Below are positions 13,461 to 37,220 of a stretch of 64,000 bases of DNA, one piece after another. How positions within the stretch are numbered: the first letter of the stretch is position 1; each line of letters begins with the position of its first letter. The stretch spans positions 13,509-77,508 of IMG/VR virus record IMGVR_UViG_3300028914_000071; one strand, 5' to 3'. The notes under the pieces were generated by a model. The model worked only from the letters and a program-made list of their open reading frames with translations. It was not told where the DNA came from and ran no database searches. A program made the translations under genes and the position numbers. This stretch comes from a virus (lineage: Duplodnaviria; Caudoviricetes).

Positions 13461-13657
13461 GAGTACGTAAATACGTGGTGTGGCGGGTGTGTTGGTAGAA
13501 GCATGGAAAAGTGGCAAATTATGGTAGGGTGGATTATTATGGTTGGAATGGAAGATTTTGTTAGAAATGGAAGAATGTGGTAAATTGCCCGGGCAATTCG
13601 CCAAAATTTACCAGTCAGATGGCAAAATAAAACCACTCCCGAAGGAGTGGCAATATT

Positions 13658-13921
13658 TTACATGGTAAGGTCTATTATGTCTTCACCTTCCAAATCATCC
13701 ATGTCAGTAATTTCCTCAACGTCAAAACCGCAATCGTAAAGAAAGTTGTCAAAATCATCATCGGTGTAACCTTCTGAATATTCAACATCTATATACTCTG
13801 CGGCATAGTCATAAAGTCCTTCTGCCATATAAACGCAAACATCATCTTCACTATTTGCTTTAAAGTAGTATATATTGTCACAACCACAATAGCCGCAACT
13901 ATATGTTCCCTTAAAATACAT
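13658..13921 (-). CDS. very acidic protein with CxxC
   Basis: Coupled to the upstream gene; D/E/Y-rich. Confidence 0.75.
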   Translation of the reverse strand: MYFKGTYSCGYCGCDNIYYFKANSEDDVCVYMAEGLYDYAAEYIDVEYSEGYTDDDFDNFLYDCGFDVEEITDMDDLEGEDIIDLTM

Positions 13922-14448
13922 TAGTCCTCATTCCCTTCCTCTTCAATTTCAATACAGAAATCTGATTCCCAAAAACTGAAAGTAAAACAGCCACCTTCTA
14001 CCAAATCCTTACATTTTTCCAGTGCATCTTCAATTTCTTCCGCAACCGCATTGTCAATTTCTGATGCTAAATGACCGCTGTATTCTTCATGGTCATAATC
14101 ATCCTCAATCATATCATACCACGGAAGGTCAAATTCATCTCCATTATCTTTACGTGCGCTAATACCGACATTTTGAATAAACCATTCAACCTTCGTATCA
14201 CGGTCAACCTCTTTGGAAAGTGCCTGTGCTAACTGCCATAAGGTTGTAAAATAGTTGCCGTCATAGGTATAACCGACATAATGTTCAACATCAAAAAATC
14301 TGCCGCTATAAATGTCTTTACCGTTCATAAAAGCAAGTGTAACATCATTTACAAGTTTGTGAGAGAAAACCTTCCTTAATCCTTCATCTAACTTGTCAAG
14401 GTTTGAATAAGTTTCAGCGCTACGGTCATTATAAATTACTTTGTACAT
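13921..14448 (-). CDS. hypothetical acidic protein
   Basis: First gene after a cassette promoter, AAAGGA RBS. Confidence 0.75.
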   Translation of the reverse strand: MYKVIYNDRSAETYSNLDKLDEGLRKVFSHKLVNDVTLAFMNGKDIYSGRFFDVEHYVGYTYDGNYFTTLWQLAQALSKEVDRDTKVEWFIQNVGISARKDNGDEFDLPWYDMIEDDYDHEEYSGHLASEIDNAVAEEIEDALEKCKDLVEGGCFTFSFWESDFCIEIEEEGNED

Positions 14449-14651
14449 AATGGTAATTCCTTTCCGGTTTTTAGAACTTGAACCTGTTCATGTTTTGTTT
14501 TATCTTATGTATATATTATAACATAGAATATAGTGTTTGTCAATAGTTTTTCTAAAAAATTTTTTATGGTATTTAATGGCAAAGTGCCCGGGCGAAAAGG
14601 CAAAAATTACCATTTCTACCATAAAAGGGAACCGCCCCAAAGGGCGGGTAA

Positions 14652-15164
14652 TTAATGGCAAATAATTTTCAAATCGTTATATATTCCTATATCTCCCGAT
14701 GACATTAAGGAAAATTTATACATTACGGAATCAATGTACAAATTAACAAGATTGTCAGAATATTCATAGTTAAAGGTTGCGTGGTCATAATCTCGCTTTA
14801 CTATGGTTCTCCAATTTATTCCAAGTGGATTGTCGTTCATATCCTTGGCATAAGTGGTACTTTCAAACCATTCTATTGCCATTTTAAATGTTAAATCTTG
14901 GTCAGTATAAAAAATTGCGTCCGTTAGTTCATCAAGTTCAAAAAGCTGTTCTTCAATACCTTCTATTTCATATTCTTTTACACAGCGTATAGCAAAGTTA
15001 TCAAATGTTACTGCATGAGGGCGGTTGATGGTGTTTTCGACAATTTGTTTAGCGATTGCCATATCTTTGTTAGTAAGAAGTTCATTTATTCTTACTATTG
15101 CACCTCTTTTGGTATGTATCTTTTCATCCTCTTTTGTTACATAATTGTTAATTGTAAAATACAT
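14652..15164 (-). CDS. hypothetical protein
   Basis: GGAGG RBS favours ATG 15164. Confidence 0.7.
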   Translation of the reverse strand: MYFTINNYVTKEDEKIHTKRGAIVRINELLTNKDMAIAKQIVENTINRPHAVTFDNFAIRCVKEYEIEGIEEQLFELDELTDAIFYTDQDLTFKMAIEWFESTTYAKDMNDNPLGINWRTIVKRDYDHATFNYEYSDNLVNLYIDSVMYKFSLMSSGDIGIYNDLKIICH

Positions 15165-15166
15165 AA

Positions 15167-15538
15167 TTAGTCCTCCCATATTAAGTTGATGTGAAAATCA
15201 TTTATGCCTACTGATGTAATTATCATTTCTTCATGTCTGTTATATGCTCTGTGTAATTCATCTATTAAATAGTTATCAACAAATGCATAAGCTGTATTGT
15301 ATATTTCTTCCGAAAGTACGTGATTTTGATGCATAAGAAGTAAATCACCTAAGCGGAAACTACCAAGTATTTTATCTTCGTTGTTAATTTCTGCGACAAG
15401 ACAAGGCATAGTAGGGGTTAAATAATACCAAGTTGCTATAATTCCTTCAGCATCACACTGACTTAAAATATAACCCACCATTTCTGTCAATGAACCTGTT
15501 TCAAAGTCATCACACTTAAATTTACAATTCTTTACCAT
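15167..15538 (-). CDS. hypothetical protein
   Basis: Cassette leader and AAAGGA RBS. Confidence 0.7.
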   Translation of the reverse strand: MVKNCKFKCDDFETGSLTEMVGYILSQCDAEGIIATWYYLTPTMPCLVAEINNEDKILGSFRLGDLLLMHQNHVLSEEIYNTAYAFVDNYLIDELHRAYNRHEEMIITSVGINDFHINLIWED

Positions 15539-15732
15539 ATGGTTATCCTTTCCGGTTTTTAGGAGTTATCACCTCTCCATCTATGTTTATATTATACCAT
15601 AGTTTATGATGTTTGTCAAGTGTTTTTCTAAAAAATTTTCGCCGCCAAAATATGGTAAACTGCCCGGGCGTTTCGCCAAAATTTTCCAGTTTTGGTATAT
15701 AAAGAAACCGCCCTTTCGGGCGGCATAAATTA

Positions 15733-16125
15733 TCAATAATATCCTTCGAGTTCATCTTCTGACTTTTTGTCTGATATGCATTGACTTATATAATATAAAA
15801 GACAAGAAAAATTACAATTTTCACTATCAATTGTAAATTTAGTGTCCCTTTTCCATTTAATTCCATTTATAAGTGTTATATTATGGAGAATATCCTGTCC
15901 TTTGTCAAGGTCGAACATACCAATATCTCTCAAAATGGCATTTTCTTCCTCTAACTGTTCTATTCGCTTTTCTAATTGAATAGTCTTTTTAAAGAGTGCG
16001 GCAAGAACTTCCATTGTTTCCATTTTCTTACCGCTTTTATCATAAAAGCCTTCTTCCCAAAAACTTTTTCCGAGATATTCCATTTCTTCTGATTCTATCC
16101 AGTCTTCTTCTATTATGCCTTCCAT
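15733..16125 (-). CDS. hypothetical coiled-coil protein
   Basis: GAGGTG RBS favours MEGIIEE start. Confidence 0.65.
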   Translation of the reverse strand: MEGIIEEDWIESEEMEYLGKSFWEEGFYDKSGKKMETMEVLAALFKKTIQLEKRIEQLEEENAILRDIGMFDLDKGQDILHNITLINGIKWKRDTKFTIDSENCNFSCLLYYISQCISDKKSEDELEGYY

Positions 16126-16136
16126 ATTCTCCCACC

Positions 16137-16580
16137 TCACATTCTTAAAATCGCATTGAGTATGTCAAAGATTTCCTTTTCTGAGTATGCACCTTTGCCC
16201 CATTCTTTTCTAATCTCTTCGTTATCGTCAAAGAGTATGCCTTCGCCTAAAGAGTGTTTAGGCGTGCCGTATGGTACAATAAGGATTTCATCCCATTCTA
16301 CAGATGGCATATGTTTCCTGAGCCACTGGAGTTTGGCATCTTTTGTACGTCTGTCAAATTCCGGTGTACTTTCCTTTGAACACCATGAAACGATTTTAAG
16401 AGTGAAATCTAAATCCTTCTGTAACTTATTGAGAAGTTTGGCAAGTCTTGACAGATTGAGCCTTGCCTTCGCATCTTTATAAGGTCGTACAGAATAATTT
16501 CTTAAATCTTCCAGCCAGCCCTCAACTTCATAAAAATTGTTAAGAGTGCCGTCCATGTCAAATACTATTTCTTTTTCCAT
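16137..16580 (-). CDS. HAD-superfamily phosphatase / 5'(3')-nucleotidase-like
   Basis: Motif I IVFDMDGTL and motif IV ILFDDN. Confidence 0.8.
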   Translation of the reverse strand: MEKEIVFDMDGTLNNFYEVEGWLEDLRNYSVRPYKDAKARLNLSRLAKLLNKLQKDLDFTLKIVSWCSKESTPEFDRRTKDAKLQWLRKHMPSVEWDEILIVPYGTPKHSLGEGILFDDNEEIRKEWGKGAYSEKEIFDILNAILRM

Positions 16581-16594
16581 AATTTAGTCCTTTC

Positions 16595-16654
16595 TTAGTC
16601 GATTGCCAAAATTCCGGCAATCATAGTTAAACCTATTAGTATTAAGGCGGTCAT
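16595..16654 (-). CDS. 19-aa hydrophobic micropeptide
   Basis: GGAGGG RBS right after the promoter; MTALILIGLTMIAGILAID. Confidence 0.45.
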   Translation of the reverse strand: MTALILIGLTMIAGILAID

Positions 16655-16836
16655 TTAATCCCTCCCTTACTGTAATTATATTATACCATATTTGCGGGCA
16701 GTTGTCAATAGTTTTTTAAAAATTTTTTCGCCGCGAAAATATGGTAGATATGGAAATTACTGGAAAAGTGCCCGGGCGTTTCGCCAATTTTTACCAATTA
16801 TGGAATATAAGAAAACCGCCCTTTCGGGCGGCGCTT

Positions 16837-16992
16837 TTATTCTTCTTCAAAGTCAGTGTCACTTCGCAACTCATTTAGTTCATGCCGTAAAGATTCTATT
16901 TCTTTTGCCATAAAGTACAAAAGTGTAAACATAGTTTCGGGATTATGCTCTAAGTCATAATAATTTTCAAAAAATTCAAAACGACCATCCAT
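16837..16992 (-). CDS. small acidic protein (51 aa)
   Basis: MDGRFEFFENYYDLEHNPETMFTLLYFMAKEIESLRHELNELRSDTDFEEE; below the track cutoff. Confidence 0.55.
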   Translation of the reverse strand: MDGRFEFFENYYDLEHNPETMFTLLYFMAKEIESLRHELNELRSDTDFEEE

Positions 16993-17045
16993 TTTTCTTT
17001 TCATCCTCTAATTTATCAATTAATTTATTTCTTCTATTCTTCTTA

Positions 17046-17414
17046 TTAACGGTAAAGAACTATAAATTCTTTTGGTGCTAAACCTTTATCAAACAGTCTT
17101 ACTGCCGCAGAAAAAATTTCCTCTTTAATATCAACAACTTTTTCACCATATTCTAACCTTTCGTTACAATAACCCTTATCAATGTAACCTGAGCGGTCAA
17201 TATATGCAAAATCTTCACCATCATCGGAGTTAATAAGAACATTTTCAAGATAATGCCTATCCGTAAAGTGTTCAATACCTTTTTCCTCAAAAAAGTCATC
17301 CCAATCAAATATATTACGAGAATCTACATATTTACCATATCCCATTTCTTCCATTACCATAGATTCCCAATACCATATGCCTATAACGGGATATATTTCA
17401 AATCTTTTATCCAT
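17046..17414 (-). CDS. hypothetical protein
   Basis: GGAGGA RBS. Confidence 0.7.
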   Translation of the reverse strand: MDKRFEIYPVIGIWYWESMVMEEMGYGKYVDSRNIFDWDDFFEEKGIEHFTDRHYLENVLINSDDGEDFAYIDRSGYIDKGYCNERLEYGEKVVDIKEEIFSAAVRLFDKGLAPKEFIVLYR

Positions 17415-17417
17415 AAC

Positions 17418-17657
17418 TTAATCCTCCTTTTTACCACTCTTAAAGAAACTACCAACAACTGCCAAAACAATTGCCCATAATGCCGCCTGTTTCCACGTCC
17501 ATACGGCAATAATTCCCAACTTACAGAGTGACCACATAGCAAGTCCCACCATAAGAACTGTACAACCATAAGTAAGAGCAATGACAACTAAAATAATTAA
17601 GCAACCAATAGCCATTTCTGTTCCAGTCATTTCCTTTTTCTTAAAATCTAATTTCAT
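17418..17657 (-). CDS. small membrane protein
   Basis: Two or three hydrophobic segments; cassette leader. Confidence 0.7.
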   Translation of the reverse strand: MKLDFKKKEMTGTEMAIGCLIILVVIALTYGCTVLMVGLAMWSLCKLGIIAVWTWKQAALWAIVLAVVGSFFKSGKKED

Positions 17658-17771
17658 AGTAAAATCCTTTCCGGTTTTTAAGACTTATAACCTGTCTTTA
17701 TCTTATGTATATATTATAGCACATAATCGCGGCAATGTCAATAGTTATTTTTGTTTTAAATCTTTTATCCA

Positions 17772-17996
17772 TTAAAAATCTTTTCCTTTCTTCCAAAGAA
17801 TTGGCGAACCTAAGCCGGCACTTTGTATCATACAGTTATATTTTTCACTAACTGTATCATAGCAAGGACAATCGCCACAATCTTCCCAAGGACCAAACTT
17901 ACACATTAAATGCAAATTACGTTTTAAAATTTTAATCTGCTCCTGTAATTGTAAAATCGTTTCTGAATTAGCTTTCATAGGCACATCAGTTATCAT
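17772..17996 (-). CDS. small Cys-rich protein
   Basis: C..GPWEDCGDCPC pattern; cassette leader. Confidence 0.65.
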   Translation of the reverse strand: MITDVPMKANSETILQLQEQIKILKRNLHLMCKFGPWEDCGDCPCYDTVSEKYNCMIQSAGLGSPILWKKGKDF

Positions 17997-18204
17997 GGTT
18001 AATTCCTTTCCGGTTTTATAGAGTTATAACCTCTCTTTATCTTATGTATATATTATAACATAGTTTTGCGGTAATGTCAATACCTTTTTAAAAAATTTTT
18101 TCTGCCATTAAATGCCAAAATGCCCGGGCGTTTCGCCAAAATTTTCCAGTTCTACCATAAAAATGGGGGCGGTAGCCTTCTTCCGAAAACTACCGCCTTT
18201 ACCA

Positions 18205-18930
18205 TTAAAATGGCAACCATCTTTGGTATCCAGTTTCTTCCACATATTGCTGGAATTTTTTCCAAGCACAAATGCACGACCATTCCTGTTTTTTACCAGA
18301 TTTGAGAACCCATAACAAAATTTCATATTCTATCATAACATCGGCAAGTCCTGTATGTTCTTCCTCAAAATTGGCATATGCTTCGCCCTTCAAATATCGG
18401 TACACTATTTCAGCACCGTACTTATAATTACCTTTTTCTGACAAATAACCATGACGGTCACAAAATTCCAAATAGGAAGGATTTAACAGTCGAGTCTTTA
18501 CTACTGCCGCCATGATGTCACGAATTTCCAGTCCTAACATTTCATACCTTGCACCAAATAACCTACTAAGTGCGGCATTATCGAAGGCAACGTTATAAGC
18601 ATACATCTTTTTAATGTTGTACTTCTGAATATCAGATGTAAATAATATCCAAAAACTCTCAATGCTTATACATCTGTACTTCCTGTTTTTAGCAGAATTC
18701 TCATAATCCTCTAAAATATCTTTTGTGTTCTTTAAGTGCATTTCTTTACACAGACCAGTTTCGAGGGAATTTAACAGATTCTGCCAAACTGCATAAGGTA
18801 ATGCAATTGACCTTTTTTCGTAAATATTGCCGGCATTATCTGCCACAATATAACCAATATTGTACGGCAGACAAGTGGAATTTCCTTCCACGTCTAATAC
18901 TATAAATTTTTCCTTTTTTCTTCCACGCAT
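18205..18930 (-). CDS. DEDDh 3'-5' exonuclease (DnaQ-like)
   Basis: ExoI IVLDVEG, ExoII YAYNVAFD, ExoIII EEHTGLADV. Confidence 0.85.
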   Translation of the reverse strand: MRGRKKEKFIVLDVEGNSTCLPYNIGYIVADNAGNIYEKRSIALPYAVWQNLLNSLETGLCKEMHLKNTKDILEDYENSAKNRKYRCISIESFWILFTSDIQKYNIKKMYAYNVAFDNAALSRLFGARYEMLGLEIRDIMAAVVKTRLLNPSYLEFCDRHGYLSEKGNYKYGAEIVYRYLKGEAYANFEEEHTGLADVMIEYEILLWVLKSGKKQEWSCICAWKKFQQYVEETGYQRWLPF

Positions 18931-19145
18931 TTTTTGGTATTCCTTTCCGGTTTTAACGACTTGTAACCTGTCGATTTATTATGTATATATTATATCACAT
19001 TTTGCGGCACTTGTCAAGAGATTTTTAAAAATATTATTTTTCCATAATTGGAAAATGCTGGAAAAGTGCCCGGGCATTTTGCCAAAATTTTCCAGTTTTG
19101 GATAAAAATAAAAGAGGGCTGAACCGAAGTTCAACCCTCGCTGGA

Positions 19146-19571
19146 TTAATTTGTCTTAGCTTCCTTTTTTGCCTTCGCCGCCGCTTTTTCCTTTTCTACC
19201 TTTTCTTTGTTCTTTTTGGCTTTTTCTTCCTTTTCCTTAGCTTCCTTCTCGTCTTCCTCTACCTTTTTCTGCCATACGCTACCCTCATATTCCCTGTCAT
19301 ATTCTGTAAAATACTTTTTGTTTGTCTGTCTGTCCTTATAGTCCTTGACAGTAGGGGAGAATGTTACGCACGCTTCAACGGTAAATCCTTCCTTTGTTTC
19401 AATTGTGAGAACAGCTACAGCTACCTCAGACTTGCCAACGATGGTAACATTTTCCTCACCGTACTTAGCCTTCATAGCTTCAACAACACTGTCAAAAGCT
19501 TCCACTCTGATAGCTTCCTTGATTTCACTGAGTTTGAAGTCCTTTTCCTTGATAGTTCTAAGTTCTGTCAT
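19146..19571 (-). CDS. hypothetical protein with K/E/A-rich tail
   Basis: Single-gene cassette. Confidence 0.75.
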   Translation of the reverse strand: MTELRTIKEKDFKLSEIKEAIRVEAFDSVVEAMKAKYGEENVTIVGKSEVAVAVLTIETKEGFTVEACVTFSPTVKDYKDRQTNKKYFTEYDREYEGSVWQKKVEEDEKEAKEKEEKAKKNKEKVEKEKAAAKAKKEAKTN

Positions 19572-19821
19572 TTTAATTACTTCCTTCCGGTTTTAACGTC
19601 TTTACCTGACAATAATGATAATATGGTTTTTAGGTGTTTTCTTCCCTTCACCTTATGTATATATTATAGCACAACTTTGTGCTATTGTCAATAGTTTTAG
19701 AAAAATTTTTTAAAAAAGTTTTTTATGGTAGAAATGGAAAAATCTGGAAAAGCGCCCGGGCGATTCGCCATAATTTTCCAGTAATGGTATAAAAGGAAAC
19801 CGCCCCAAAGGGCGGCATAGA

Positions 19822-20028
19822 TTAATTATCGTATAAATCAAGTGCTTCAAGACTTGCTACATCACAATTATCATCAAGATACTCATATAGTTCTTTTTCT
19901 GTGCTTCCTGTATATGATTCACCTGTCAAATCTGCAATTGTTGACAAAACGTCTTTAAGTGCGGAGGAATATTCAGTGTATGCACAAGTGGAACAACCCA
20001 TAACGTTTACTATGTATATTTCTTTCAT
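19822..20028 (-). CDS. hypothetical acidic protein
   Basis: AGGAG RBS favours MKEIYIV start. Confidence 0.6.
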   Translation of the reverse strand: MKEIYIVNVMGCSTCAYTEYSSALKDVLSTIADLTGESYTGSTEKELYEYLDDNCDVASLEALDLYDN

Positions 20029-20029
20029 T

Positions 20030-20425
20030 TTACGACTCCTTTTCTTCAAGAAACTCAATACACTTTTCCGCCCAAATAACCATACTTTTCTCATGTTCTA
20101 AGTAATCTGCTATATGTTCTACATTATCATTCTCAGAAGTAACATACCATTCATATTTATATGGAATATCTAAACATTTAGCAAGAATACCATAATCTGC
20201 ATCCGTTTCGGTGAAATAGTCGTGGAAATACTTAACTAAATAGTTTCTTTCCTTTTCTGAAAGTCCTATTATTTTAAAGGGATAGCCACACTCAGCAATT
20301 AAATTTATTACCTCCTCTACCTCGTTAACTTTGTTTCCGGCAAGTACATCAAAATCGGGAATTTTATATTCAAGTATTTTGAAGTTTAAATTTATTGCAT
20401 CGCCTTTACATATTTTAATATACAT
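20030..20425 (-). CDS. hypothetical protein
   Basis: GAGGT RBS. Confidence 0.65.
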   Translation of the reverse strand: MYIKICKGDAINLNFKILEYKIPDFDVLAGNKVNEVEEVINLIAECGYPFKIIGLSEKERNYLVKYFHDYFTETDADYGILAKCLDIPYKYEWYVTSENDNVEHIADYLEHEKSMVIWAEKCIEFLEEKES

Positions 20426-20429
20426 ACTA

Positions 20430-20645
20430 TTACCTCACATTCTGTACAAATACGGCAACATTAAGTGCCAAGAAAATTCCATTAATGATAGCTCCTGTAA
20501 GAACCTTATTTCTGGTAGAATCTACCAGCCCTATTGAACTTGACAGGATAAACATAGGTGCTGACCAATTACTACCAGCGTAGCACAGTCCAGCCGCCAA
20601 AGCACAGCTAAAAATCATGATGTAATCAATACTTCTTAGTTTCAT
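20430..20645 (-). CDS. small membrane protein
   Basis: Hydrophobic; cassette leader. Confidence 0.65.
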   Translation of the reverse strand: MKLRSIDYIMIFSCALAAGLCYAGSNWSAPMFILSSSIGLVDSTRNKVLTGAIINGIFLALNVAVFVQNVR

Positions 20646-22508: not shown

Positions 22509-22737
22509 AGTTAAAATTCCTTCCGGTTTTATAGACTTGTTACCTGTCTTTGTGTTTTGTTTTATCTTATGTATATATTATAGCATAGAATAAGGTACTT
22601 GTCAATAGTTTTTCTAAAATTTTTTAAAAATATTTTTATGGTAAAAACGGAAAAAGATGGAAAATCGCCCGGGCGTTTCGCCATAATTTACCATTTATGG
22701 AATATGAAAATGCCGCCCATTTCTGAGCGGCACATTT

Positions 22738-23271
22738 TTACTGATTCATGTACTTTTTGTAAAGGTCGATAAAGATAACGTATACATTGTCCATGGTAAT
22801 TTTTTCCGGGTCGAGATGTTTGCAAGAAACTGATTTACCAGTTTTTGTATTTATGAGCATCACCGTAACACCGTCAAAGAGTTTGTTATTAATTGTTATA
22901 ATATAATCATTACGACCATATTTTCCGCCAAGTTCCTGTAATATACCATATCTTGTCACCTTAAGTTCGGCATAAAGTCGAGAACAAATAGTATTAAATT
23001 TAAACTCAACCTTATCATGTTCAACACCGCCACCAACGAGTTCCAAAAACTTCTTCTTATACCAAAAAGTGGTTCTTACTGGCTTAGGACGTGGAATTTC
23101 CACCATTTGGTCGAAATCAAAAACTTTTAAATCACCGTTAGACTGGTTACAACCAACATAACCATTTACATCTTGGAATTTAGTTTTACCTACAAAAAGG
23201 TAGTCATAAACACCTACACTAAAGAAATCACCATTGTTTAATGTTGATACAAGAACTTTTATTGTTTTCAT
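22738..23271 (-). CDS. hypothetical (same family, domains in reverse order)
   Basis: LINTKTGKSVSC at the C-terminus; LNNGDFF at the N-terminus. Confidence 0.7.
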   Translation of the reverse strand: MKTIKVLVSTLNNGDFFSVGVYDYLFVGKTKFQDVNGYVGCNQSNGDLKVFDFDQMVEIPRPKPVRTTFWYKKKFLELVGGGVEHDKVEFKFNTICSRLYAELKVTRYGILQELGGKYGRNDYIITINNKLFDGVTVMLINTKTGKSVSCKHLDPEKITMDNVYVIFIDLYKKYMNQ

Positions 23272-23471
23272 TACTTTACCCTCCTTAATGTCATATCACC
23301 AACGGAAACAGAATCAATGAACCCATTGCTAAAACGCTTTAATGGGCAGTAGGTTAACCATCTCTGTTCTTTATTCATTAAAGAAGTAAACATTCTTACA
23401 GCTACATAGCTATGCGGTGAAGTGTAAGTATTTTCCGGCTTGCCGATAAATCTGATTTCATACTTTTCCAT
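23271..23471 (-). CDS. hypothetical protein
   Basis: Cassette leader; coupled to the next gene. Confidence 0.6.
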   Translation of the reverse strand: MEKYEIRFIGKPENTYTSPHSYVAVRMFTSLMNKEQRWLTYCPLKRFSNGFIDSVSVGDMTLRRVK

Positions 23472-23684
23472 ATTGGTATTCCTTTCCGGTTTTTAGGACT
23501 TATCACCTGTCCTTTACTGTAATTATATTATACCATACTTTGCGGCACTTGTCAACACTTTTCTGAAAAAATTTTTTGGTAGTTTATGGCAAATTGCCCG
23601 GGCGTTTTGGAAAAATTTTCCAGTTCTACCATAATAAGAAAACCGCCCTCTTTCGAGAGCGGCTTCCAGTTTTTGCCGTGTTTA

Positions 23685-24005
23685 TTACTTTACTTTTGTG
23701 TACTGCTTAGGTGTGCTGTCGTCTGAAATAACCTTATCCTTTAAGATTTCTCTAAGGATATAGCCAATCTTTGACGAGTTGTACTGACCGGCAAACATTG
23801 CCACAATATCTGCGTTAAGGTACTTCTTACCAGCTTCCATTTTGGCAAGAATTTCCTCACCGAGTGCAACATTAGCTTCACGCTTAGAATCCTTCGCCTT
23901 GTCCTCTTCCGCAAACTTAGCAAGATACTTGCCAGCAATTTCCTTAGCTTCTGCGCTGATAGATGCATTTGTAGCTACTTCGTTGTAAAATTCTCTAAGT
24001 GTCAT
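23685..24005 (-). CDS. small protein, probable winged helix (paralog of 21590-21955)
   Basis: See paralog; single-gene cassette. Confidence 0.75.
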   Translation of the reverse strand: MTLREFYNEVATNASISAEAKEIAGKYLAKFAEEDKAKDSKREANVALGEEILAKMEAGKKYLNADIVAMFAGQYNSSKIGYILREILKDKVISDDSTPKQYTKVK

Positions 24006-24272
24006 AATTTTTCTACCTTTCCGTTTTAACGTCTTGAACGTGACAATGAATATAAATAATGAATGATTTAAGGTTTTAGGTTTTTGTTTCCCTCAACCTT
24101 ATGTATATATTATAGCATAGATTTATTAGAATGTCAATAGTTTTTCTAAAAAAATTTAAAAATTATTTTATGGTATAATTGGAAAAATTTGGCAAAGTGC
24201 CCGGGCATTTTGGTAGAAATTGCCATCTCAATGGTAAATGGAAAAGCCGCCCATTTCTGAGCGACTTTAGTT

Positions 24273-29876: not shown

Positions 29877-29891
29877 GTTAAATACCTCTCT

Positions 29892-30080: not shown

Positions 30081-30436
30081 AATAAACCATTCCTTTCTAC
30101 TATCGGGTTGTTTCTTTCCCCTTACCCTGTAATTATATTATACCATACTGACGGGTATTTGTCAACACTTTTTTAAAAATTTTTTATGGTAGGGTTGGAA
30201 ATAGTTGGAAAATCGCCCGGGCAATTTGGTAAAACTTTCCAATTTTGCGGCAAAGAAAAAGGCTGGACTTTCGCCCAACCTTTTCCATTATAGAAACAAC
30301 CTTGGAGGTGTGAAAATATCAATTAACCAAACAGAATGTTAACTACTAAGATAATTAATCCTGTAAGTCCGGCACTCTGAGCAAATGCCTTTACGTCAAC
30401 AAAACTTCTATAATTCTTCATTTCTAAAACTCCTTA

Positions 30437-30682
30437 TTACTTTAATTTAAACTGTGTAGTAAAAACTTCTCCGCACTCGTTACATCTATATAACATAGTG
30501 CTGTCACCTCTAACCTCTATACATTTCCAATTGCCGCCACAACCTGTACAAATACCGTGGTTATATTTGGCAGTATCTTCCTTGTACTGACTATAATCAC
30601 CTACGAGAATTGCGGCAAGTACGCCAACAATTGCCAGTGATACTATTACCTCAATTACTGTTACACCCTTAAAATTTTTCAT
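30437..30682 (-). CDS. prepilin-type N-terminal motif protein with C-terminal zinc ribbon
   Basis: MKNFKG/VTVIEVIVSLAIVGVLAAILV (type III signal with E5); CTGC..CNEC. Confidence 0.75.
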   Translation of the reverse strand: MKNFKGVTVIEVIVSLAIVGVLAAILVGDYSQYKEDTAKYNHGICTGCGGNWKCIEVRGDSTMLYRCNECGEVFTTQFKLK

Positions 30683-30890
30683 AAAATCAAGTCCTTTCTA
30701 ATTGGTTGTTTCCCTTACCCTGTAATTATATTATACCATATAGGCGGTCATTTGTCAAGCACTTTTTAAAAAAATTTTTTATGGATTTTATTGGAAAAAT
30801 GCCCGGGCGATTTTCCATAATTTACCATTTATACCACAAAAAAAGTGGCGGTACGAATACCGCCAAAGTTCTACCATATTTTTCTATTTA

Positions 30891-31891: not shown

Positions 31892-32271
31892 AATAAAATT
31901 CCTCCTAATAAATGGTTGTTGTTTCTTCTTAGTGGTCTTATCTCTTCCACTGTTATTATTATACCATAGTTCAATTCATTTGTCAACGCTTTTAGCTCAC
32001 AAAAAATATGTGTTGAATTTGTGCAGGATGCACAGCTCCTTAGTCGTTCCATATTTACCAGCTTATCCCAGCTCCTTTATTGTTATATATTGGAAAAATG
32101 CCGTGCAAGCTGGTAAAAACTGGAAAATTGCCCGGGCCTCTTACTACAATATACCAATGGCATAAACTGGAAAAATGCCCGGGCATTTTTCCAAAATCTT
32201 CCATTTTTGGGGCGTGCGGAAGGGCTTCCACCTTTTGGCAGAAGCCCCTCTTTTATGGGAGAGATGGGAGA

Positions 32272-32703
32272 TTATTCCCACTCTCCTAATTCGTTACACT
32301 TTTTCCATGATTCGTAATCGGAGTAAAAATGTTCCATTTTCTTGTATCGTTCTACAATTCTGTCACATTCTGTCTTAACTTCCTCGAAATTACCAATCAC
32401 ATTAAAAATTGGATTAACTTCAACTAAATTGTACTTATACCAACATTCACTCCATATTCCAGTAATTGGGTGATAACCCATTTCTTCGGAAACCCTTGAC
32501 AATTTTGTCTCAATTCTGCTATTAACTGCCATGTCTACCGGAACTTCCTCAATTTCCAGATAGAAGCCGTCCATGGTGGCTGTGGTAATCATGTCACGGA
32601 TAACCTCATCCGGCGTATCCTGACTGATTTCCCATCTCTTACCAACCTGAGTTTCCATTTTCTTCGCACCAATAACTGCTAATAAAACTACCATTTTCTG
32701 CAT
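32272..32703 (-). CDS. hypothetical (paralog of 33689-34123)
   Basis: ETQ..WEI..TP..I.DMI..A..G..L..EE.P.D..G..P.TG.WSECWY shared. Confidence 0.8.
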   Translation of the reverse strand: MQKMVVLLAVIGAKKMETQVGKRWEISQDTPDEVIRDMITTATMDGFYLEIEEVPVDMAVNSRIETKLSRVSEEMGYHPITGIWSECWYKYNLVEVNPIFNVIGNFEEVKTECDRIVERYKKMEHFYSDYESWKKCNELGEWE

Positions 32704-32856
32704 AATAATTACCTCCATAGATATACCATTTGTTTCCTGTGAGGGTTCTTATCTCCCTCAACCTTATGTATACATTATACTGCTGCAATGTGATAGAATT
32801 ATGATAGTTTGGTGAAAACTGTGTGAAAACATATTTTACCATTATCAAATCTTGCG

Positions 32857-32966
32857 GTTAAATATTGTTACATTTTGCGCCGTCATATTGACGTTAAATA
32901 TTGTTACATTTTGCGCCGTCATATTGACGTTAAATATTGTTACATAATATCATCGTCATTTTGACG
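32857..32966. repeat. 36-bp tandem repeat, two exact copies plus one degenerate
   Basis: GTTAAATATTGTTACATTTTGCGCCGTCATATTGAC at 32857 and 32893, degenerate at 32929. Confidence 0.9.
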
Positions 32967-33106
32967 AAACATTTACTACCATGATTACCAAAATATGGAA
33001 AACTGCCCGGGCATTTTGGTATAATATGGTAATAATGGGGTATAAAGTAAGGGCGACCGAAATCGCCCAAACTTAGGAAACAACCTATCAAATTAACTAC
33101 ACTTTA

Positions 33107-33316
33107 TCAAACATGGAGGAATTTGTAAAGTGTATCCAAAATGTCGTTTATTTCTCTTTTGTTGACAAACGGGGAAATAGTTTCCAGACCACCCTGTTCA
33201 CAAACACGGCAAAGTCTGACACTACCGTTGGCATATTCTAACTTATAATTTTTGCCAGTTTTTCTGGAAATGTTTGCCACCTTAACATCTAATATCATTT
33301 TTGTTACTCTTGCCAT
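33107..33316 (-). CDS. hypothetical protein
   Basis: AAAGAGG RBS; single-gene cassette. Confidence 0.65.
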   Translation of the reverse strand: MARVTKMILDVKVANISRKTGKNYKLEYANGSVRLCRVCEQGGLETISPFVNKREINDILDTLYKFLHV

Positions 33317-33688
33317 AATATACCTCTTTCCGAGCGTTACGCTCTTTGTTTCTATGATTATATTATACCACGGATTGCGGCGAAAGTCAAGTAAAAAAAT
33401 CAGTGTTGAATTTGTGCATATTGCACAGCTCCCTAATCATCCATTTTTACCATAATTTACCATCCAGTCGTAGCTCCTTTTCCTTCCATATTTACCATAT
33501 TTTACCACCAAAATATTTTTAACATATATTGGAAAACTGCCATACAAGTTGGTATAATATGGAAATTTGCCCGGGCATTTTTCCAGTATTTACCATTTCG
33601 ATGGCGCATGGGATTATATGGTAACTGAGTGAAATTTTAGTGGAACTCCCACCTTTTGGTAGGAGCCCCACATTTTGGGGAATTTGGA

Positions 33689-34123
33689 TTATTCTTCCTC
33701 TTCACCCTCTCTATGGATTTTCTTCCATGATTCGTAAGTATGGTATTCATTTTCCATTTCTTTGATTAAATCGGTAAGTCTGTCAATTTCTGACTGTACA
33801 TCCGACACATCACCAATCAGACCAAGTTTTTCATCAACTACCACAAGATTGTTTTCATACCAACATTCGCTCCACATACCAGTTACTGGGCGGAAACCCA
33901 TTTCTGTGGCAACTGCTGACATTAAATCTATAATGCGGTAACCAATGGTAAAGTCGCAAGGAATTTCCTCAACATCCAGAAAATAACCAGCCTGGGCAGC
34001 ACTGGAAATCATGTCCTTAATATCCTTAATTGGAGTTTCAAGGGTGATTTCCCAAGTATTGACAGCCTGAGTTTCCTGTCCCTTTGCGCAAAGAATAGCC
34101 AGTGTGATTACAAATTTTTCCAT
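33689..34123 (-). CDS. hypothetical (paralog of 32272-32703)
   Basis: See paralog. Confidence 0.8.
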   Translation of the reverse strand: MEKFVITLAILCAKGQETQAVNTWEITLETPIKDIKDMISSAAQAGYFLDVEEIPCDFTIGYRIIDLMSAVATEMGFRPVTGMWSECWYENNLVVVDEKLGLIGDVSDVQSEIDRLTDLIKEMENEYHTYESWKKIHREGEEEE

Positions 34124-34668
34124 AATAATGTCCTCCTAAAAATTGGGTTTGGGTTGTTTCTTCTTAGTGGTCTTATCTCTTCCACTGTTATTATTATACC
34201 ATATCCCGCCGCAGATGTCAAGTAAAAAAAACAGTGTTGAAACTGTGCAATATGCACAAAGTCAGGAAATCACAGTTCTCTCATATTTTTCCATGTTGTG
34301 GTTTTACAGTTTTCCCAGCTTCTCCCATTGTAAAATTTCCCCTATTTCTGACATAAAAACCCAGCTCCATCTTCTTCCTTTTTTAACAAATTTTACCATC
34401 GGAACGTAGCTCCCTGTTCGTTCCATATATACCAAAATTTTCCACCGAAAGACATTTGTTATATTATGACATATATTATACGATTTGTCAGACCTGTAAA
34501 AATCTGGAAAATCGCCCGGGCATTTTTCCATATATTTCCAAATTGCCCGTGCATTTTACCATATTTTTCCATGGAAAATTTTTCCTCGCTCGGCAATTTG
34601 TTATATTTTACCAATTCTATAATACCAGAAAATGGAAGCCTTGCTTTTGACAAGACTTCCAAATTTTA

Positions 34669-34875
34669 TCAATAATCGTAATCACTGGAATAAATGTCCC
34701 ATCTTGGTTCAATTTCCATTAATCTGGTAGTTACGGTATAATCTGACTCATCTTGTATTTTTCCTCTTTTTCTGTAAAGATTTAACAGTGGTTCCACATC
34801 TTCCTCATAATAGCAACGAATTGGAAACCATTCCCCTTTAATTCTAATTTCCCAAACTCTTGACATATATACCAT
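34669..34875 (-). CDS. hypothetical protein
   Basis: AAAGGA RBS. Confidence 0.55.
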   Translation of the reverse strand: MVYMSRVWEIRIKGEWFPIRCYYEEDVEPLLNLYRKRGKIQDESDYTVTTRLMEIEPRWDIYSSDYDY

Positions 34876-34933
34876 TCCTTTCTAATTTATGGGCGGAACT
34901 CCCATTTCTGAGAGTTCCCTTCCCAATTACCAC

Positions 34934-35314
34934 TTATTCCATGTAATCCAATTTCTCCCAAAGTTCCTCGGTTTCCCTTGCCATTCTCTTTAAGAAATGG
35001 CGAAGACCGTCAATTTCCCAAATCATTCCAAGGGAATCGTTGGTAACTATAACATCCCACATTTTCCATTCTTCAGGAGCATGAACGATAAAATCCATTT
35101 TCTGTGCAACCTTAACAAAGTTGGCAAGACCTTCCTCGTCCATTTCCACAATCTGGAAGCTGCGGTCATTTGCCGTTTTAATGGCATCTTCTACCACTTC
35201 CTGAGAAGTAGTGCCTGAAATGGCAAACTCTGCCACCTTGCCGTATTCGTCGTAGTCGTAGTTTCCATCTCTGTCAAAAACTTCCTTGTCTGCGTAAACC
35301 TTAAATCTGAACAT
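34934..35314 (-). CDS. hypothetical acidic protein
   Basis: AGGAGG RBS. Confidence 0.7.
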   Translation of the reverse strand: MFRFKVYADKEVFDRDGNYDYDEYGKVAEFAISGTTSQEVVEDAIKTANDRSFQIVEMDEEGLANFVKVAQKMDFIVHAPEEWKMWDVIVTNDSLGMIWEIDGLRHFLKRMARETEELWEKLDYME

Positions 35315-35496
35315 AATTATAGACCTCCTATTGGTAGTTGTTTCCTTGAGGAGTTTACCTCCTCCTTACATTATCTATTATACACCATTACAAGGGATTT
35401 GTCAACACTTTTACCTACCAAAGATTACGGGTATATTTTGTTTAAAATGCACAAAGAGTTTTCAACACAAGTTATTATCATTTTTACAAAAATTTT

Positions 35497-35646
35497 CCTT
35501 ACCATTTTTCTTACATTTATTGTATAAATTTCCCTTACCATTTTTCTTACATTTATTGTATAAATTTTCCACGGTACTGTTTTTACTTTTATGTAAAATT
35601 TTTCCACGGTACTTTATTTTACATTTTTGTCAAAAGTTTCCACGGT
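35497..35646. repeat. degenerate repeats with about 36-bp period
   Basis: CCTTACCATTTTTCTTACATTTATTGTATAAATTT twice, then TTCCACGGT at 35567, 35602, 35638. Confidence 0.75.
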
Positions 35647-35959
35647 GACTGCCATTGGCAACGGATTAACATTTTTACCAAAATCTGGAAAATCGCCCGG
35701 GCAACTTTCCATATATTACCAAAAGATTTATTTTACCATTTCGCGGCAAGATTGTAAAAATTTTACAAATAAACATTTTTCTCCATTATTATTTAATTAT
35801 AATAATTATAACATAATCTTTTATAATTGTAAATATCTTCATTTTAATACCATAAAATGTTTTCACATAACTTTCACAAAACTATCACATTTCTATCACA
35901 TAAGAATAGTATAATAAAGACAATGAAAACAACAACCCACTCGGGCAATTTGGAAAGGA

Positions 35960-36430
35960 ATGGTATTTATGAATATCTACAAAGAAATGGAAAAAAATGA
36001 GTATCTGGCAAGATATAGAAAACTTGTCTATACTAAGCATCAAATCTATGGTTTTCCTTTTGAGGGAAATATTTACACCTATTTTACTGAAGATGAATAT
36101 TTTGACTACTATCTTAACACAAACTCCGAAACTAAAACAAAAACTCTTGACTGGCGACCAACTAAGAAGTCAATCAACAGAATGTTAGAAAAAGCGACAA
36201 TTCTTTGTACTGAAGAAGAATTTAAAGCAAAATATTGCTATAGTAACAACGGAAGAACATTAGAACGCTTACTGTATGAAAAGTTACTTAATCAGACTTA
36301 TGTTCCTGATACAATACGATTTGACCAAGGCGCAGACATTACGATAGATAATGTACCATATAGTGTAAAATATCTTCGTGGTAGACTATCTGATGAAAAA
36401 ACTATAGAAACTGCAGAAAATGACAAATAA
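35960..36430 (+). CDS. putative PD-(D/E)XK-like nuclease-fold protein (paralog of 38280-38804)
   Basis: NNGRTLERLLYE..GADI..YSVKY; own promoter and terminator (near 36439-36464). Confidence 0.65.
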   Translation: MVFMNIYKEMEKNEYLARYRKLVYTKHQIYGFPFEGNIYTYFTEDEYFDYYLNTNSETKTKTLDWRPTKKSINRMLEKATILCTEEEFKAKYCYSNNGRTLERLLYEKLLNQTYVPDTIRFDQGADITIDNVPYSVKYLRGRLSDEKTIETAENDK

Positions 36431-36519
36431 TTTAACTTCTCGTCGCCAAGAGATTGGCGGCGACCTTTTTATGTTATAACTGTTATATTATGGTAATCGC
36501 GGCGAAATTACCAAAAACC

Positions 36520-37220
36520 TTAACTATTTACTTTTTTGGAAATGTATGGTATAATAATTACAGAAAGTAAAAAATACCAAAGTAATGCTGCTGTAGGAAA
36601 ATTTTCCAAAAATAGACAGCTTACATATTTTTCCATTTTTGGAAAATTTTTCCACCATTTGCAGCTCCCATCTTCTTCCATAATTACCAAATTTTACCAG
36701 TGGAATGTAGCTCCCATCTTCTTCTATAAATGGTAAAATTTGGCAAACGCAGCTCCCATCTTCTTCCATAAATGGAAAATTTTACCACCGGAACGTAGCT
36801 CCCATCTTCTTCCATAAATGGTAAAATTTGGAAGCGCAGCTCCCATATCCTTACATATATGGAAAATTATGGCAAACGCAGCTCCTAGAACCTTCCATTT
36901 ATGGAAAATTCTGGAGGAAACTGGAAAAATCTGGAAAATCGCCCGGGCAATTTTCCAAGATTTTCCATGGTAAATACTGGAAAATTGCCCGACCCGGAAA
37001 ATTTTTCCATGGAAGAAATTGGAAAATATGTCAGAATTTTCCATGGTAAATTTTACCAAAAAATGTGAAAAATTTACAGAGCTGGAAAAATTTTCCATAA
37101 CTGTCAAAAACTGGAAAAATAATGAATAATTTTCCATTGGAAAATTTTTACAGAAAATGTCAGAATTTTCCATGGAAAAATCCGGCAGAAAATGGTAAAT
37201 TTTTCCATGGAAAAGGCTGG
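36520..37220. repeat. low-complexity tract of TTTTCCA/TGGAAAA heptamers and G(C/T)AGCTCCCATC units
   Basis: G(C/T)AGCTCC at 36661, 36707, 36749, 36795, 36836, 36878; many TTTTCCATGGAAAA palindromes. Confidence 0.9.

What the first reader, a model, noticed from the sequence alone, without database searches (positions are those of the whole stretch)
13583..36957. 23-kb accessory gene cassette array punctuated by 29 copies of a GCCCGGGC-centred dyad
Seen: almost every 0.5-1.4 kb unit has the same layout on the - strand: terminator hairpin, the dyad TGG(A/T/C)AAAnn-GCCCGGGC-nnTTT(T/G/A)CCA (a perfect 26-bp palindrome at 32168-32193), an A/T tract, a sigmaA promoter, a conserved leader, then 1-3 small ORFs. 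Extra TGGAAA/TGGTAAA half-sites flank the dyad at roughly one-helical-turn spacing. The GC-rich 8-mer is invariant while flanks drift, and I saw no copy outside this block. Known analogies: promoter-stem-loop cassettes that shuffle modules in T4-type phages, and integron cassette arrays; this site matches neither. Inference: a site-specific cassette exchange system (the symmetric core would allow excision and inversion), or a master operator coordinating about 28 early promoters. No integrase is visible in the window.
Basis: partly seen in the sequence, partly recalled or inferred. Interest (0 to 1): 0.92.

Follow-up and report, generated by a model that had tools for sequence, protein, structure and literature searches.

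The report
Repeated palindromic boundary sites in phage early genes
A 23-kb block of early genes in a large gut or rumen phage consists of about 28 small transcription units, each bounded by the same GCCCGGGC-centred symmetric DNA site; the site looks like a shared protein-binding control element, and it is also where related phages have swapped and reordered these gene units.

Summary
All 29 GCCCGGGC copies lie in 13587-36948 (0.1 expected), and none lies elsewhere in the 77.5-kb contig.

Each core sits in a fixed module on the - strand:
- an intrinsic terminator, then about 37 nt;
- the core, flanked by 4-7 TGGNA/TNCCA half-sites at 10-bp period;
- an A/T tract;
- a perfect TTGACA-17-TGnTATAAT promoter (21 of 29);
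- a conserved leader and 1-4 ORFan genes.

Three relatives carry the same array, two of them complete 180-kb genomes. One relative also uses a second palindromic core, GGCCGGCC.

Cassette order differs between relatives, and most mapped junctions lie within 10 bp of the core, so modular shuffling is supported. Dedicated site-specific recombination is not supported:
- a complete relative has no tyrosine or serine recombinase;
- crossover points are not fixed;
- the modules are finely mosaic throughout.

Mirror positions of the arms do not covary, which argues against a hairpin and for independent protein-contacted half-sites.

My best reading is an operator or insulator site for an unidentified symmetric oligomeric protein, doubling as a recombination hot spot like the promoter-early stem-loop (PeSL) cassettes of T4-type phages. 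The binder and its effect are unknown. I rate it a new variant of a known kind, of moderate to high interest.

Another first-stage read of this scan noted the same stretch of this genome.

The parts
13583..36957 (-). Early-gene cassette array: 28 core-to-core units with about 45 small genes, almost all ORFans, transcribed leftwards.
   Evidence: Core positions come, gene layout, and Pfam and PHROGs scans of 44 ORFs. GC skew changes sign at about 13.5 kb and again at about 40 kb.
32168..32193 (.). Best copy of the dyad, a perfect 26-bp palindrome TGGAAAAAT-GCCCGGGC-ATTTTTCCA. The other 28 cores start at 13587, 14586, 15662, 16770, 18122, 19068, 19754, 20772, 21519, 22667, 23596, 24199, 25098, 25939, 26715, 27258, 28095, 28743, 29560, 30215, 30801, 31503, 32130, 33005, 33569, 34514, 35695 and 36941.
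22600..22760 (-). Representative full module: terminator hairpin of the upstream cassette, half-sites, core 22667-22674, A/T tract and consensus promoter. It is also a mapped recombination junction against G002.
   Evidence: Identity to G002 is near-perfect through the promoter, the core and 4 nt beyond, then collapses. G002 site 13430 combines the left half of window site 22667 with the right half of window site 23596.
22675..24198 (-). Cassettes seg10 (22675-23595) and seg11 (23604-24198). Their order is reversed relative to G001, G002 and G004, where extra cassettes lie between them.
36661..37319 (.). Iteron-like tandem repeats rich in TGGAAA/TTTCCA half-sites at the head of the array, with 42-46-bp, 35-bp and 42-bp units. 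They may be a nucleation site for the half-site binder, or an origin.
35960..36430 (+). Opposite-strand gene inside the array head (P0001, 156 aa) with its own terminator. Its E..D..SxK motif resembles a PD-(D/E)xK nuclease. It is a low-odds candidate for a core-recognising nuclease or binder.
   Evidence: It is 75% identical in G001 and absent from G002. The Atlas lead to ThaI and SmaI restriction-enzyme clusters scores 0.90 and 0.88. The family alignment has invariant G98, E102, D126 and K137. No Pfam, PDB or fold match was found.

Best explanation
The block is the hyperplastic early region of a roughly 180-kb TAG-recoded tailed phage. Its host is probably a Clostridia-class bacterium of the gut or rumen.

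The region is a chain of about 28 self-contained transcription units. Each boundary carries one composite module:
- an intrinsic terminator;
- a symmetric site made of the 8-bp GC palindrome plus 4-7 TGGNA/TNCCA half-sites at 10-bp period;
- an A/T (UP-like) tract;
- a consensus extended -10 sigmaA promoter;
- a conserved leader.

The dyad most likely acts on duplex DNA as a binding site for a symmetric, cooperatively oligomerising protein that has not been identified and could be phage- or host-encoded. That protein would put all early units under one control. Because the promoters are already consensus, the likely effect is shut-off, or insulation of neighbouring very strong units.

The same module sits at every boundary, so recombination between units and between co-infecting relatives resolves there. 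This produces cassette gain, loss and reordering, as with the PeSL cassettes of T4-type phages.

Shown: the anatomy, conservation in relatives, selection on the site, absence of arm covariation, cassette reordering, and junctions clustered at the dyad.

Inferred: that a protein binds, which protein it is, and whether it represses or insulates.
For: Non-random and confined to the array
- 29 copies against 0.1 expected, all inside the array.
- The same holds in the complete relative G001 (31 copies, all in one 22-kb array).
- G004:C94 has 30 copies, against one in the remaining 1.5 Mb of that genome bin.

Selection on sequence
- The core and key half-site bases (T-19, A-15, T-9, T+11, T+12, A+16) are invariant in 29 of 29 copies, while the adjacent terminators vary freely.
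- The core persists in genomes only 70-85% identical in the array.

Half-sites behave independently
- Across 76 unique dyads, mirror positions are no more complementary than shuffles at 29 of 30 positions.
- Half-site orientation flips in about 9 of 29 copies.
- Both points argue against a hairpin or cruciform and for protein contacts.

Symmetry is preserved when the core changes
- GCCCGGGC becomes GGCCGGCC by a paired change at positions 2 and 7.

Geometry
- The terminator-to-core distance is fixed at 32-38 nt.
- In 84 dyad-promoter pairs from four genomes, the core-to-(-35) distance clusters at 39-42 (35 pairs), 48-51 (5), 60-62 (24) and 71-73 (6), i.e. roughly 10-bp steps.

A known binding grammar matches the arms
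- TGGNA pairs with 4-5-bp AT spacers in any orientation are the high-affinity pattern of B. subtilis AbrB (PMC3738160).
- Such pairs occur 137 times in the array against 9 in the rest of the window and about 2 in shuffles.

Shuffling
-.

Precedent
- PeSL cassettes in T4-type phages (PMC2839356, PMC4122927).
Against: - No binding protein was found. The 44 array ORFs have no DNA-binding Pfam or PHROG hits.
- There is no AbrB/MazE-family match in G000, G001 or G002, nor in the 1.7-Mb Eubacterium genome bin that holds the fourth relative. That bin is incomplete and the binning is uncertain.
- Eight dyads lack a nearby consensus promoter, and the dyad is spaced more tightly to the terminator than to the promoter. 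Its primary partner may therefore be the 3' end of the unit rather than the promoter.
- The 10-bp distance steps could simply reflect duplication of 10-bp half-site units.
- The phased A4T4 runs in the arms would also give intrinsic curvature without any protein.
Confidence: 0.5

Rival explanations
1. The dyad is a dedicated site-specific recombination site, built like lox or FRT: two inverted arms around an 8-bp symmetric spacer. An unrecognised recombinase would use it to excise, insert and invert cassettes.
For: - Cassette order differs between relatives in a way that is simplest to explain by excision and re-entry, or by unequal exchange at cores.
- Six or seven of nine junction ends lie within 10 bp of the core.
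- The longest exact identity between paralogous modules overlaps the core in only 29 of 190 pairs, so homology alone would favour the promoter and leader instead.
- A half-and-half core, GCCCGGCC, exists in G002 and G004.
Against: - The complete relative has no tyrosine or serine recombinase in six frames.
- Exchange points are scattered: -25, -7, -3, inside the core, and +6.
- The same cassette (seg10) is flanked by GCCCGGGC in the window and by GGCCGGTC in G002, with no hybrid cores.
- Other junctions fall at a terminator/ORF boundary and in a leader.
- Similarity matrices of adjacent module segments are uncorrelated at most boundaries, not only across the core.
- The junction sample is small and its members are not independent.
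Confidence: 0.12
2. The core is the target of a sequence-specific endonuclease, possibly the PD-(D/E)xK-like protein P0001 encoded at 35960-36430. Breaks at the core would be repaired from other copies, which would give short conversion patches, cassette shuffling and possibly recombination-primed replication.
For: - Short replaced patches are centred on the core while the flanks stay about 95% identical. Examples are window site 25098 against G001 site 18088, and seg10 with its core and 6-8 nt of flank replaced in G002.
- P0001 sits inside the array head and is conserved in G001.
- Its family has invariant E, D and K residues arranged like a nuclease motif.
- The language-model look-alikes include ThaI and SmaI restriction-enzyme clusters at 0.90 and 0.88. 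By general knowledge, SmaI cuts CCCGGG, which is the centre of the core.
Against: - Atlas scores below 0.9 are leads only.
- The SmaI profile finds nothing in six frames even at E = 10.
- There is no Pfam, PDB-sequence or fold match despite a model with pLDDT 95.
- A homologue lies in another recoded phage's early array that has no GC-core dyads at all, and family members sit beside a 5'-nucleotidase gene. That suggests a general nucleotide-salvage nuclease.
- G002 keeps 14 GCCCGGGC cores but lacks the gene in the 48 kb available.
- No cytosine methyltransferase that could protect 29 self-sites was seen.
Confidence: 0.08
3. The half-site arms are recognised by a host transition-state regulator of the AbrB/SpoVT type. 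The phage would use this to couple early transcription to host growth state, or to soak up the regulator, while the GC core serves a separate reader or only as a rigid spacer.
For: - The arm grammar equals the published AbrB high-affinity pattern: bipartite TGGNA, a 4-5-bp AT spacer, and all orientations allowed (PMC3738160).
- The enrichment is 25-fold over the rest of the window.
- Orientation flips are tolerated.
Against: - No PF04014 match in the phage genomes.
- No PF04014 match in the Eubacterium genome bin that carries the fourth relative (the bin is incomplete).
- AbrB needs no GC core, yet the core is the most constrained part of the site.
- The host is not established.
Confidence: 0.12
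4. No dedicated protein is involved. The phased A4T4 runs form intrinsically curved DNA that boosts RNA polymerase binding, the dyad serves as a back-up terminator hairpin, and gene conversion among copies keeps the core uniform.
For: - The arms contain GGAAAATTTTGG and CCAAAATTTTCC runs at 10-bp phase.
- The terminator scan flags two dyads as terminator-like.
- The modules are finely mosaic, so conversion is frequent.
Against: - Arms do not covary to keep pairing.
- The true terminators next door vary in sequence while keeping their structure, whereas the dyad keeps its sequence.
- Specific TGG/CCA bases and all eight core bases are fixed across genomes that differ by 15-30%. Curvature alone does not require this.
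- The core change to GGCCGGCC is symmetric.
Confidence: 0.1

Closest known systems
PeSL (promoter-early stem-loop) regulatory cassettes of T4-type phages (Arbiol et al. 2010, PMC2839356; Comeau et al. 2014, PMC4122927)
   Same: - Both are composite terminator-plus-strong-sigma70-type-promoter modules with an AT-rich upstream tract.
- Both are repeated dozens of times in a hyperplastic early region full of ORFans.
- In both, comparison of close relatives shows insertion, deletion, replacement and reordering of units, with junctions in the modules.
   Different: - This is a different phage lineage (a Firmicutes-type, TAG-recoded phage whose capsid matches those of large Enterococcus and Bacillus phages) and a different host group.
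- The stem-loop here is a separate canonical terminator.
- Between terminator and promoter lies an extra element that PeSLs lack: an invariant 8-bp GC palindrome with phased TGGNA half-sites.
- Mini-circles were not tested here.
Global operator regulons of plasmids, for example the KorB OB sites of IncP RK2 (general knowledge, not checked in a paper here)
   Same: One short palindromic site is repeated at many promoters of one replicon, at varying distances upstream, which allows coordinated control by one dimeric protein.
   Different: - There is no ParB/KorB homologue beyond one sub-threshold KorB-domain hit (E = 0.004) in an unrelated ORF at 5932-6549.
- The site architecture also differs: a GC core plus multiple 10-bp-phased half-sites, locked to a terminator.
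AbrB-type transition-state regulator binding sites in Bacillus subtilis (Chumsakul et al. 2013, PMC3738160)
   Same: [quoted passage not shown]
   Different: AbrB sites have no conserved GC palindrome, and no AbrB-family gene was found in the phages or in the candidate host bin.
Integron attC sites and lox/FRT-type recombination sites (general knowledge)
   Same: An imperfect palindrome at the 3' end of every cassette, built as inverted arms around an 8-bp centre.
   Different: - No integrase is present.
- The arms do not covary, whereas a folded attC would require covariation.
- Every cassette carries its own promoter.
- Junctions are not at a fixed bond.
Host-takeover module of Bacillus phage SPO1 (general knowledge)
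   Same: A cluster of many small early genes, each group driven by a very strong sigmaA promoter with its own terminator.
   Different: I know of no shared palindromic boundary element reported for SPO1. The phages are unrelated at sequence level (no megablast hit to any of 50,697 phage records).

Membership tests
PeSL-type mobile regulatory cassettes | Repeated intergenic motif with a consensus sigma70-type promoter and an AT-rich upstream tract. | tested here: met
   21 of 29 modules have TTGACA-17-TATAAT, mostly with a TG extension and an A/T tract.
PeSL-type mobile regulatory cassettes | An associated stable stem-loop acting as terminator or attenuator. | tested here: met
   A GC-rich hairpin followed by a T run ends 32-38 nt upstream of the core in 24 of 29 copies. 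Termination activity itself was not assayed.
PeSL-type mobile regulatory cassettes | Concentrated in hyperplastic regions upstream of ORFans. | tested here: met
   All copies lie in one 23-kb block. Of 44 ORFs, almost none has a known family.
PeSL-type mobile regulatory cassettes | Differences between close relatives map to recombination between the motifs. | tested here: met
   Comparisons of the window with G002, G001 and G004.
PeSL-type mobile regulatory cassettes | Formation of excised mini-circles. | not testable with these tools
   Needs reads or PCR from a lysate.
Site-specific recombination site (integron attC, lox/FRT-like) | A cognate tyrosine or serine recombinase encoded by the element. 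| tested here: not met
   PF00589 and PF00239 find nothing in six frames of G000, G001 (complete) or G002. The controls ring in 14 and 12 of 14 genomes.
Site-specific recombination site (integron attC, lox/FRT-like) | Exchange at a fixed position within the core. | tested here: not met
   Junction intervals fall at about -25, -7, -3, within the core plus 4 nt, and +6. Two junctions lie outside the dyad.
Site-specific recombination site (integron attC, lox/FRT-like) | For attC: a folded single strand kept by compensatory changes. | tested here: not met
   No excess complementarity at 29 of 30 mirror positions in 76 unique dyads.
AbrB-type binding site | [quoted passage not shown] | tested here: met
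   137 such pairs in the array, 9 elsewhere, about 2 in shuffles. The grammar is taken from PMC3738160.
AbrB-type binding site | An AbrB/SpoVT-family protein available in the phage or the host. | tested here: inconclusive
   No PF04014 match in the three phage records or in the incomplete 1.7-Mb Eubacterium bin. The host is not established.
Known RNA family | A match to an Rfam covariance model. | tested here: not met
   No family reaches its gathering score in 12000-40000.

The most novel reading that the evidence does not exclude
The GC palindrome, together with a phage-encoded restriction-like nuclease (P0001 or another ORFan), forms a self-targeting system. It would deliberately break the phage's own early region at every cassette boundary, driving rapid shuffling and exchange of host-takeover genes between co-infecting relatives. 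In effect this would be a phage-built diversity generator for accessory genes, with the alternative core GGCCGGCC marking a second specificity.
Probability: 0.07. Interest if true: 0.9.

Novelty: new variant of a known kind. Interest (0 to 1): 0.62.

Why it matters
Large phages carry long runs of small early genes of unknown function, and these runs turn over quickly. How they are regulated as a set, and how they are exchanged, is known in detail only for T4-type phages.

This lineage is an uncultured, stop-codon-recoded phage of gut or rumen Firmicutes. It shows the same modular logic with an added, very strongly constrained symmetric site at every unit boundary.

If a protein reads that site, one factor would control about 28 units, and it could be found directly by pull-down with a 26-bp probe. 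If the site also directs recombination, it would explain how accessory genes move between related phages.

The two alternative palindromic cores in one relative offer a natural specificity switch to test.

Tried and rejected
Searches that found nothing useful
- Megablast of the array against 50,697 phage records: no match.
- The distant capsid relative phAss-1 has no such dyad.
- Dyad patterns in IMG/VR hit only G001 and G002. A third contig, G003, is a chance match at 50% GC.
- Literature search for the 8-mer with 'phage': nothing relevant.
- Rfam: nothing.

Searches for a binder
- Pfam on the head-of-array ORFs and on the G002 head ORFs: nothing above noise.
- Pfam surveys of 155 G001 ORFs outside the array found HTH_36, winged-helix, small HTH and two GIY-YIG proteins, but nothing that links to the dyad.

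P0001
- The SmaI profile, Pfam on 55 family members, a PDB sequence profile, Foldseek against PDB and BFVD, and VIA-align against 48,161 chains gave no significant match.

Hairpin and RNA readings
- These were rejected because the arms do not covary.

Test for a recombination break only at the core
- The correlation of segment similarity matrices showed breaks at most module boundaries, so it gave no support for a core-only hot spot.

Full report
**Observation.** GCCCGGGC occurs 29 times in the 64-kb window, all between 13587 and 36948. Dinucleotide-preserving shuffles give a mean of 0.10 and never more than 1. The window is bases 13509-77508 of a 77.5-kb IMG/VR viral contig with an estimated completeness of 43%. 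The remaining 13.5 kb holds no copy.

Aligned on the core and read on the - strand, the consensus is TGGnAAATTtTGGcAAAat-GCCCGGGC-aaTTTTCCAnattnTtCCA. There are four strong half-sites (TGGnAAA and its mirror) spaced 10 bp apart. Several positions are invariant in all 29 copies. The perfect 26-bp palindrome reported at 32168-32193 is there.

**Module anatomy.**
- A GC-rich terminator hairpin with a T run ends 32-38 nt upstream of the core in 24 of 29 copies.
- A perfect or near-perfect TTGACA-17-TATAAT promoter, usually with a TG extension and an A/T tract upstream, follows in 21 of 29.
- The core-to-(-35) distance is not fixed. In the window it takes the values 40-42, 49-50, 61-62 and 73.
- Over 84 dyad-promoter pairs in four related genomes it clusters at 39-42 (35 pairs), 48-51 (5), 60-62 (24) and 71-73 (6).
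- The extra length is made of additional half-sites.
- The dyad is therefore locked to the terminator and separated from the promoter by whole helical turns.
- Eight copies have no consensus promoter within 160 nt: the last copy at 13587, the copy at 26715, and six in the array head (32177-36941). The three most upstream copies (34514, 35695, 36941) also have no terminator hairpin.
- The 28 core-to-core units hold about 45 small - strand genes. Nearly all have no Pfam or PHROG function. One is a 5'-deoxynucleotidase.

**The phage.** The flanking genes include a Dda-like helicase, a portal protein, a capsid-like protein and other virion proteins. The capsid-like protein has distant relatives in phAss-1 (a TAG-recoded human-gut phage; PMC10607447), in the roughly 140-kb Enterococcus phages EF1 and EF5, and in Bacillus phages Kirov and PBC2. 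The array itself has no nucleotide match in 50,697 phage records.

**Relatives.** Pattern scans found three genomes with the same array.
- G001 is IMGVR_UViG_3300031992_000014, 180,579 bp, rated complete. It has 31 cores in one 22-kb array.
- G002 is IMGVR_UViG_3300028832_000206, a 47.9-kb fragment.
- G004:C94 is JAGCPW010000095.1, a 180,054-bp contig binned into a Eubacterium sp. genome from yak reticulum. It has 29 GCCCGGGC and one GCCCGGCC, against a single copy in the other 1.5 Mb of that bin.

G001 and G004 are 70-85% identical to the window across the array. G002 is 97% identical over window 10001-22731 and 99.5% identical over the structural genes. Its array head is unrelated to the window's.

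No other contig among 2.9 million IMG/VR records carries the architecture, even when any GC-only 8-mer core is allowed.

**A second core.** In G002, 14 dyads have GCCCGGGC, eight have GGCCGGCC and four have GGCCGGTC. There are also single GCCCGGCC, GACCGGCC and GCCCGGAC sites, all within the same half-site arms. The change from GCCCGGGC to GGCCGGCC is a paired, symmetry-preserving change at positions 2 and 7. G001 has three single-base variants among 34 sites. The core is thus under strong but not absolute constraint, and its symmetry matters.

**Hairpin or protein site.** If the dyad worked as a folded RNA or single-stranded DNA, variable mirror positions should covary. In 76 unique dyads from three genomes they do not. 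Observed complementarity equals the shuffle expectation at 29 of 30 positions.

Inner half-sites are flipped in about 9 of 29 copies, which would break pairing. The canonical terminators next door show the opposite pattern, with structure kept and sequence free. No Rfam family matches.

This favours recognition of duplex DNA by a protein that reads half-sites independently.

The arm grammar is TGGNA, a 5-bp AT spacer, then TGGNA, in any orientation. This is the published high-affinity pattern of B. subtilis AbrB (PMC3738160). Such pairs occur 137 times in the array, 9 times in the other 40 kb and about 2 times in shuffles.

No AbrB/MazE-family protein was found in the phages or in the incomplete Eubacterium bin. 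The resemblance therefore describes how the site may be read, not who reads it.

**Recombination.** Core-to-core segments of the window align end to end with G002, at identities that differ from one segment to the next. Order also differs. The window has seg9-seg10-seg11-seg12, while G001, G002 and G004 have seg9-seg11-(a seg11 paralogue)-seg10-X-seg12.

At base resolution:
- G002 site 13430 is the left half of window site 22667 joined to the right half of window site 23596. The crossover lies inside the shared GCCCGGGCGTTT.
- Other one-sided junctions end at -3, -7 and about -25, or begin at the core or at +6.
- Two junctions lie elsewhere, one at a terminator/ORF boundary and one in a leader.

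The longest exact identity between paralogous modules overlaps the core in only 29 of 190 pairs. The clustering of junctions at the dyad is therefore more than simple homology length predicts, although the sample is small.

Some orthologous modules are about 95% identical on both sides yet have their arms replaced over roughly 50 bp around an unchanged core. Seg10 keeps 96% identity but has GCCCGGGC flanks in the window and GGCCGGTC flanks in G002. These look like short conversion patches centred on the dyad.

Several results argue against a dedicated system:
- The complete relative has no tyrosine or serine recombinase.
- Exchange points are not fixed.
- Divergent patches also occur inside cassettes.
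- Similarity matrices of adjacent module segments are uncorrelated at most boundaries.

The picture is a finely mosaic repeat family in which the dyad is a favoured, but not exclusive, exchange point.

**A lead that did not hold up well.** A + strand gene sits inside the array head (35960-36430, P0001). It is 75% identical in G001 and absent from the G002 fragment. The ESM Atlas places it near ThaI and SmaI restriction-enzyme clusters at 0.90 and 0.88. This is striking because, by general knowledge, SmaI cuts CCCGGG, the centre of the core.

Its family (64 representative clusters) has invariant G, E, D and K residues arranged like a PD-(D/E)xK motif, and it folds with pLDDT 95.

Against the lead:
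- The SmaI profile, Pfam, a PDB sequence profile and three fold searches found nothing.
- A homologue lies in another recoded phage's early array that has perfect sigmaA promoters but no GC dyads.
- Family members tend to sit beside a 5'-nucleotidase gene.

I keep it as a low-probability candidate.

**Comparison with known systems.** The closest described system is the PeSL cassette of T4-type phages. PeSLs are composite terminator and strong early promoter motifs in hyperplastic ORFan regions, and they mediate modular shuffling (PMC2839356, PMC4122927). Four of its five defining features are met here. The fifth, mini-circles, cannot be tested with these tools.

What is added here is the invariant GC palindrome with phased half-sites between terminator and promoter. 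I found no description of such an element.

The array works like a PeSL region with a shared operator. It is not a member of any integron or lox-type family, because the defining features I could test were not met.

**Verdict.** The finding is real, strongly non-random, conserved and under selection.

I put about 0.5 on a protein-read operator or insulator that also serves as the preferred recombination joint. I put about 0.1 on each of these alternatives: a dedicated recombination site, a nuclease-targeted hot spot, host AbrB-type binding as the main function, and a protein-free structural role.

I class it as a new variant of a known kind and score interest at about 0.6.

**Earlier findings of this scan.** The earlier-findings index lists the same stretch, read in another window of this genome, as a cassette-like array (e1-5889973). 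It also has separate notes on the conserved leader (e1-5889974) and on TAG recoding (e1-5889978).

Noticed in passing
window 39000-64000; also L017 (phAss-1): Structural and packaging genes appear split under table 11 and read through under table 15 (TAG=Q). The capsid-like protein's distant relative phAss-1 is filed under 'Caudoviricetes code 15 clade'. A P0001 homologue translates only with TAG=Q.
   Followed up: partly
window 35960-36430 (+): P0001 belongs to an uncharacterised family of roughly 150-aa phage proteins (64 representative clusters) with invariant G98, E102, D126 and K137. The model is confident (pLDDT 95) but has no fold match in PDB or BFVD. Family members often lie next to a 5'-nucleotidase gene, so it may be a small nuclease.
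   Followed up: yes
window 35850-35915: Upstream of P0001 there are four TCACA-containing repeats about 10-11 bp apart and a TATAAT with no good -35. This looks like a different promoter class from the early array.
   Followed up: no
window 36661-37319: Iteron-like tandem repeats (42-46 bp x5, 35 bp x2.5, 42 bp x2.2), packed with TGGAAA/TTTCCA and TTTTCCATGGAAAA motifs, lie in the divergent region at the array head. They may be an origin or a nucleation site.
   Followed up: partly
window 14458-30700, first gene of most cassettes: A conserved 5' leader: a short covarying hairpin followed by AAAACCGGAA(A)GGA as the ribosome-binding site. It contains a second conserved CCGG.
   Followed up: no
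window 4078-7037 (+): Five consecutive ORFs of 162-211 aa. One of them (5932-6549) has a sub-threshold KorB DNA-binding domain hit (E = 0.004).
   Followed up: no
window 10337-10660 (+) and G001:161184, 142429, 170646: Small HTH_36 proteins. One lies directly upstream of the Dda-like helicase. G001 has a 222-aa copy next to the tail end of its array.
   Followed up: partly
L016:10596-11051 (-) in G002: A 151-aa ORF in the G002-specific array head has a weak hit (E = 0.09) to the C-terminal domain of Staphylococcus phage G1 gp67. By general knowledge, gp67 binds sigmaA.
   Followed up: no
G004:C94 (JAGCPW010000095.1): A whole 180-kb relative of this phage is binned inside a Eubacterium sp. genome assembled from yak reticulum. 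This is a lead to the environment and host, or a binning artefact.
   Followed up: partly
G001 (L166-L171): The complete relative encodes gyrase-like topoisomerase subunits, NrdD, ThyX, dUTPase, ClpP, a Dam-class methyltransferase, DNA ligase, RecJ, RNA ligases, Thg1 and two GIY-YIG endonucleases.
   Followed up: partly
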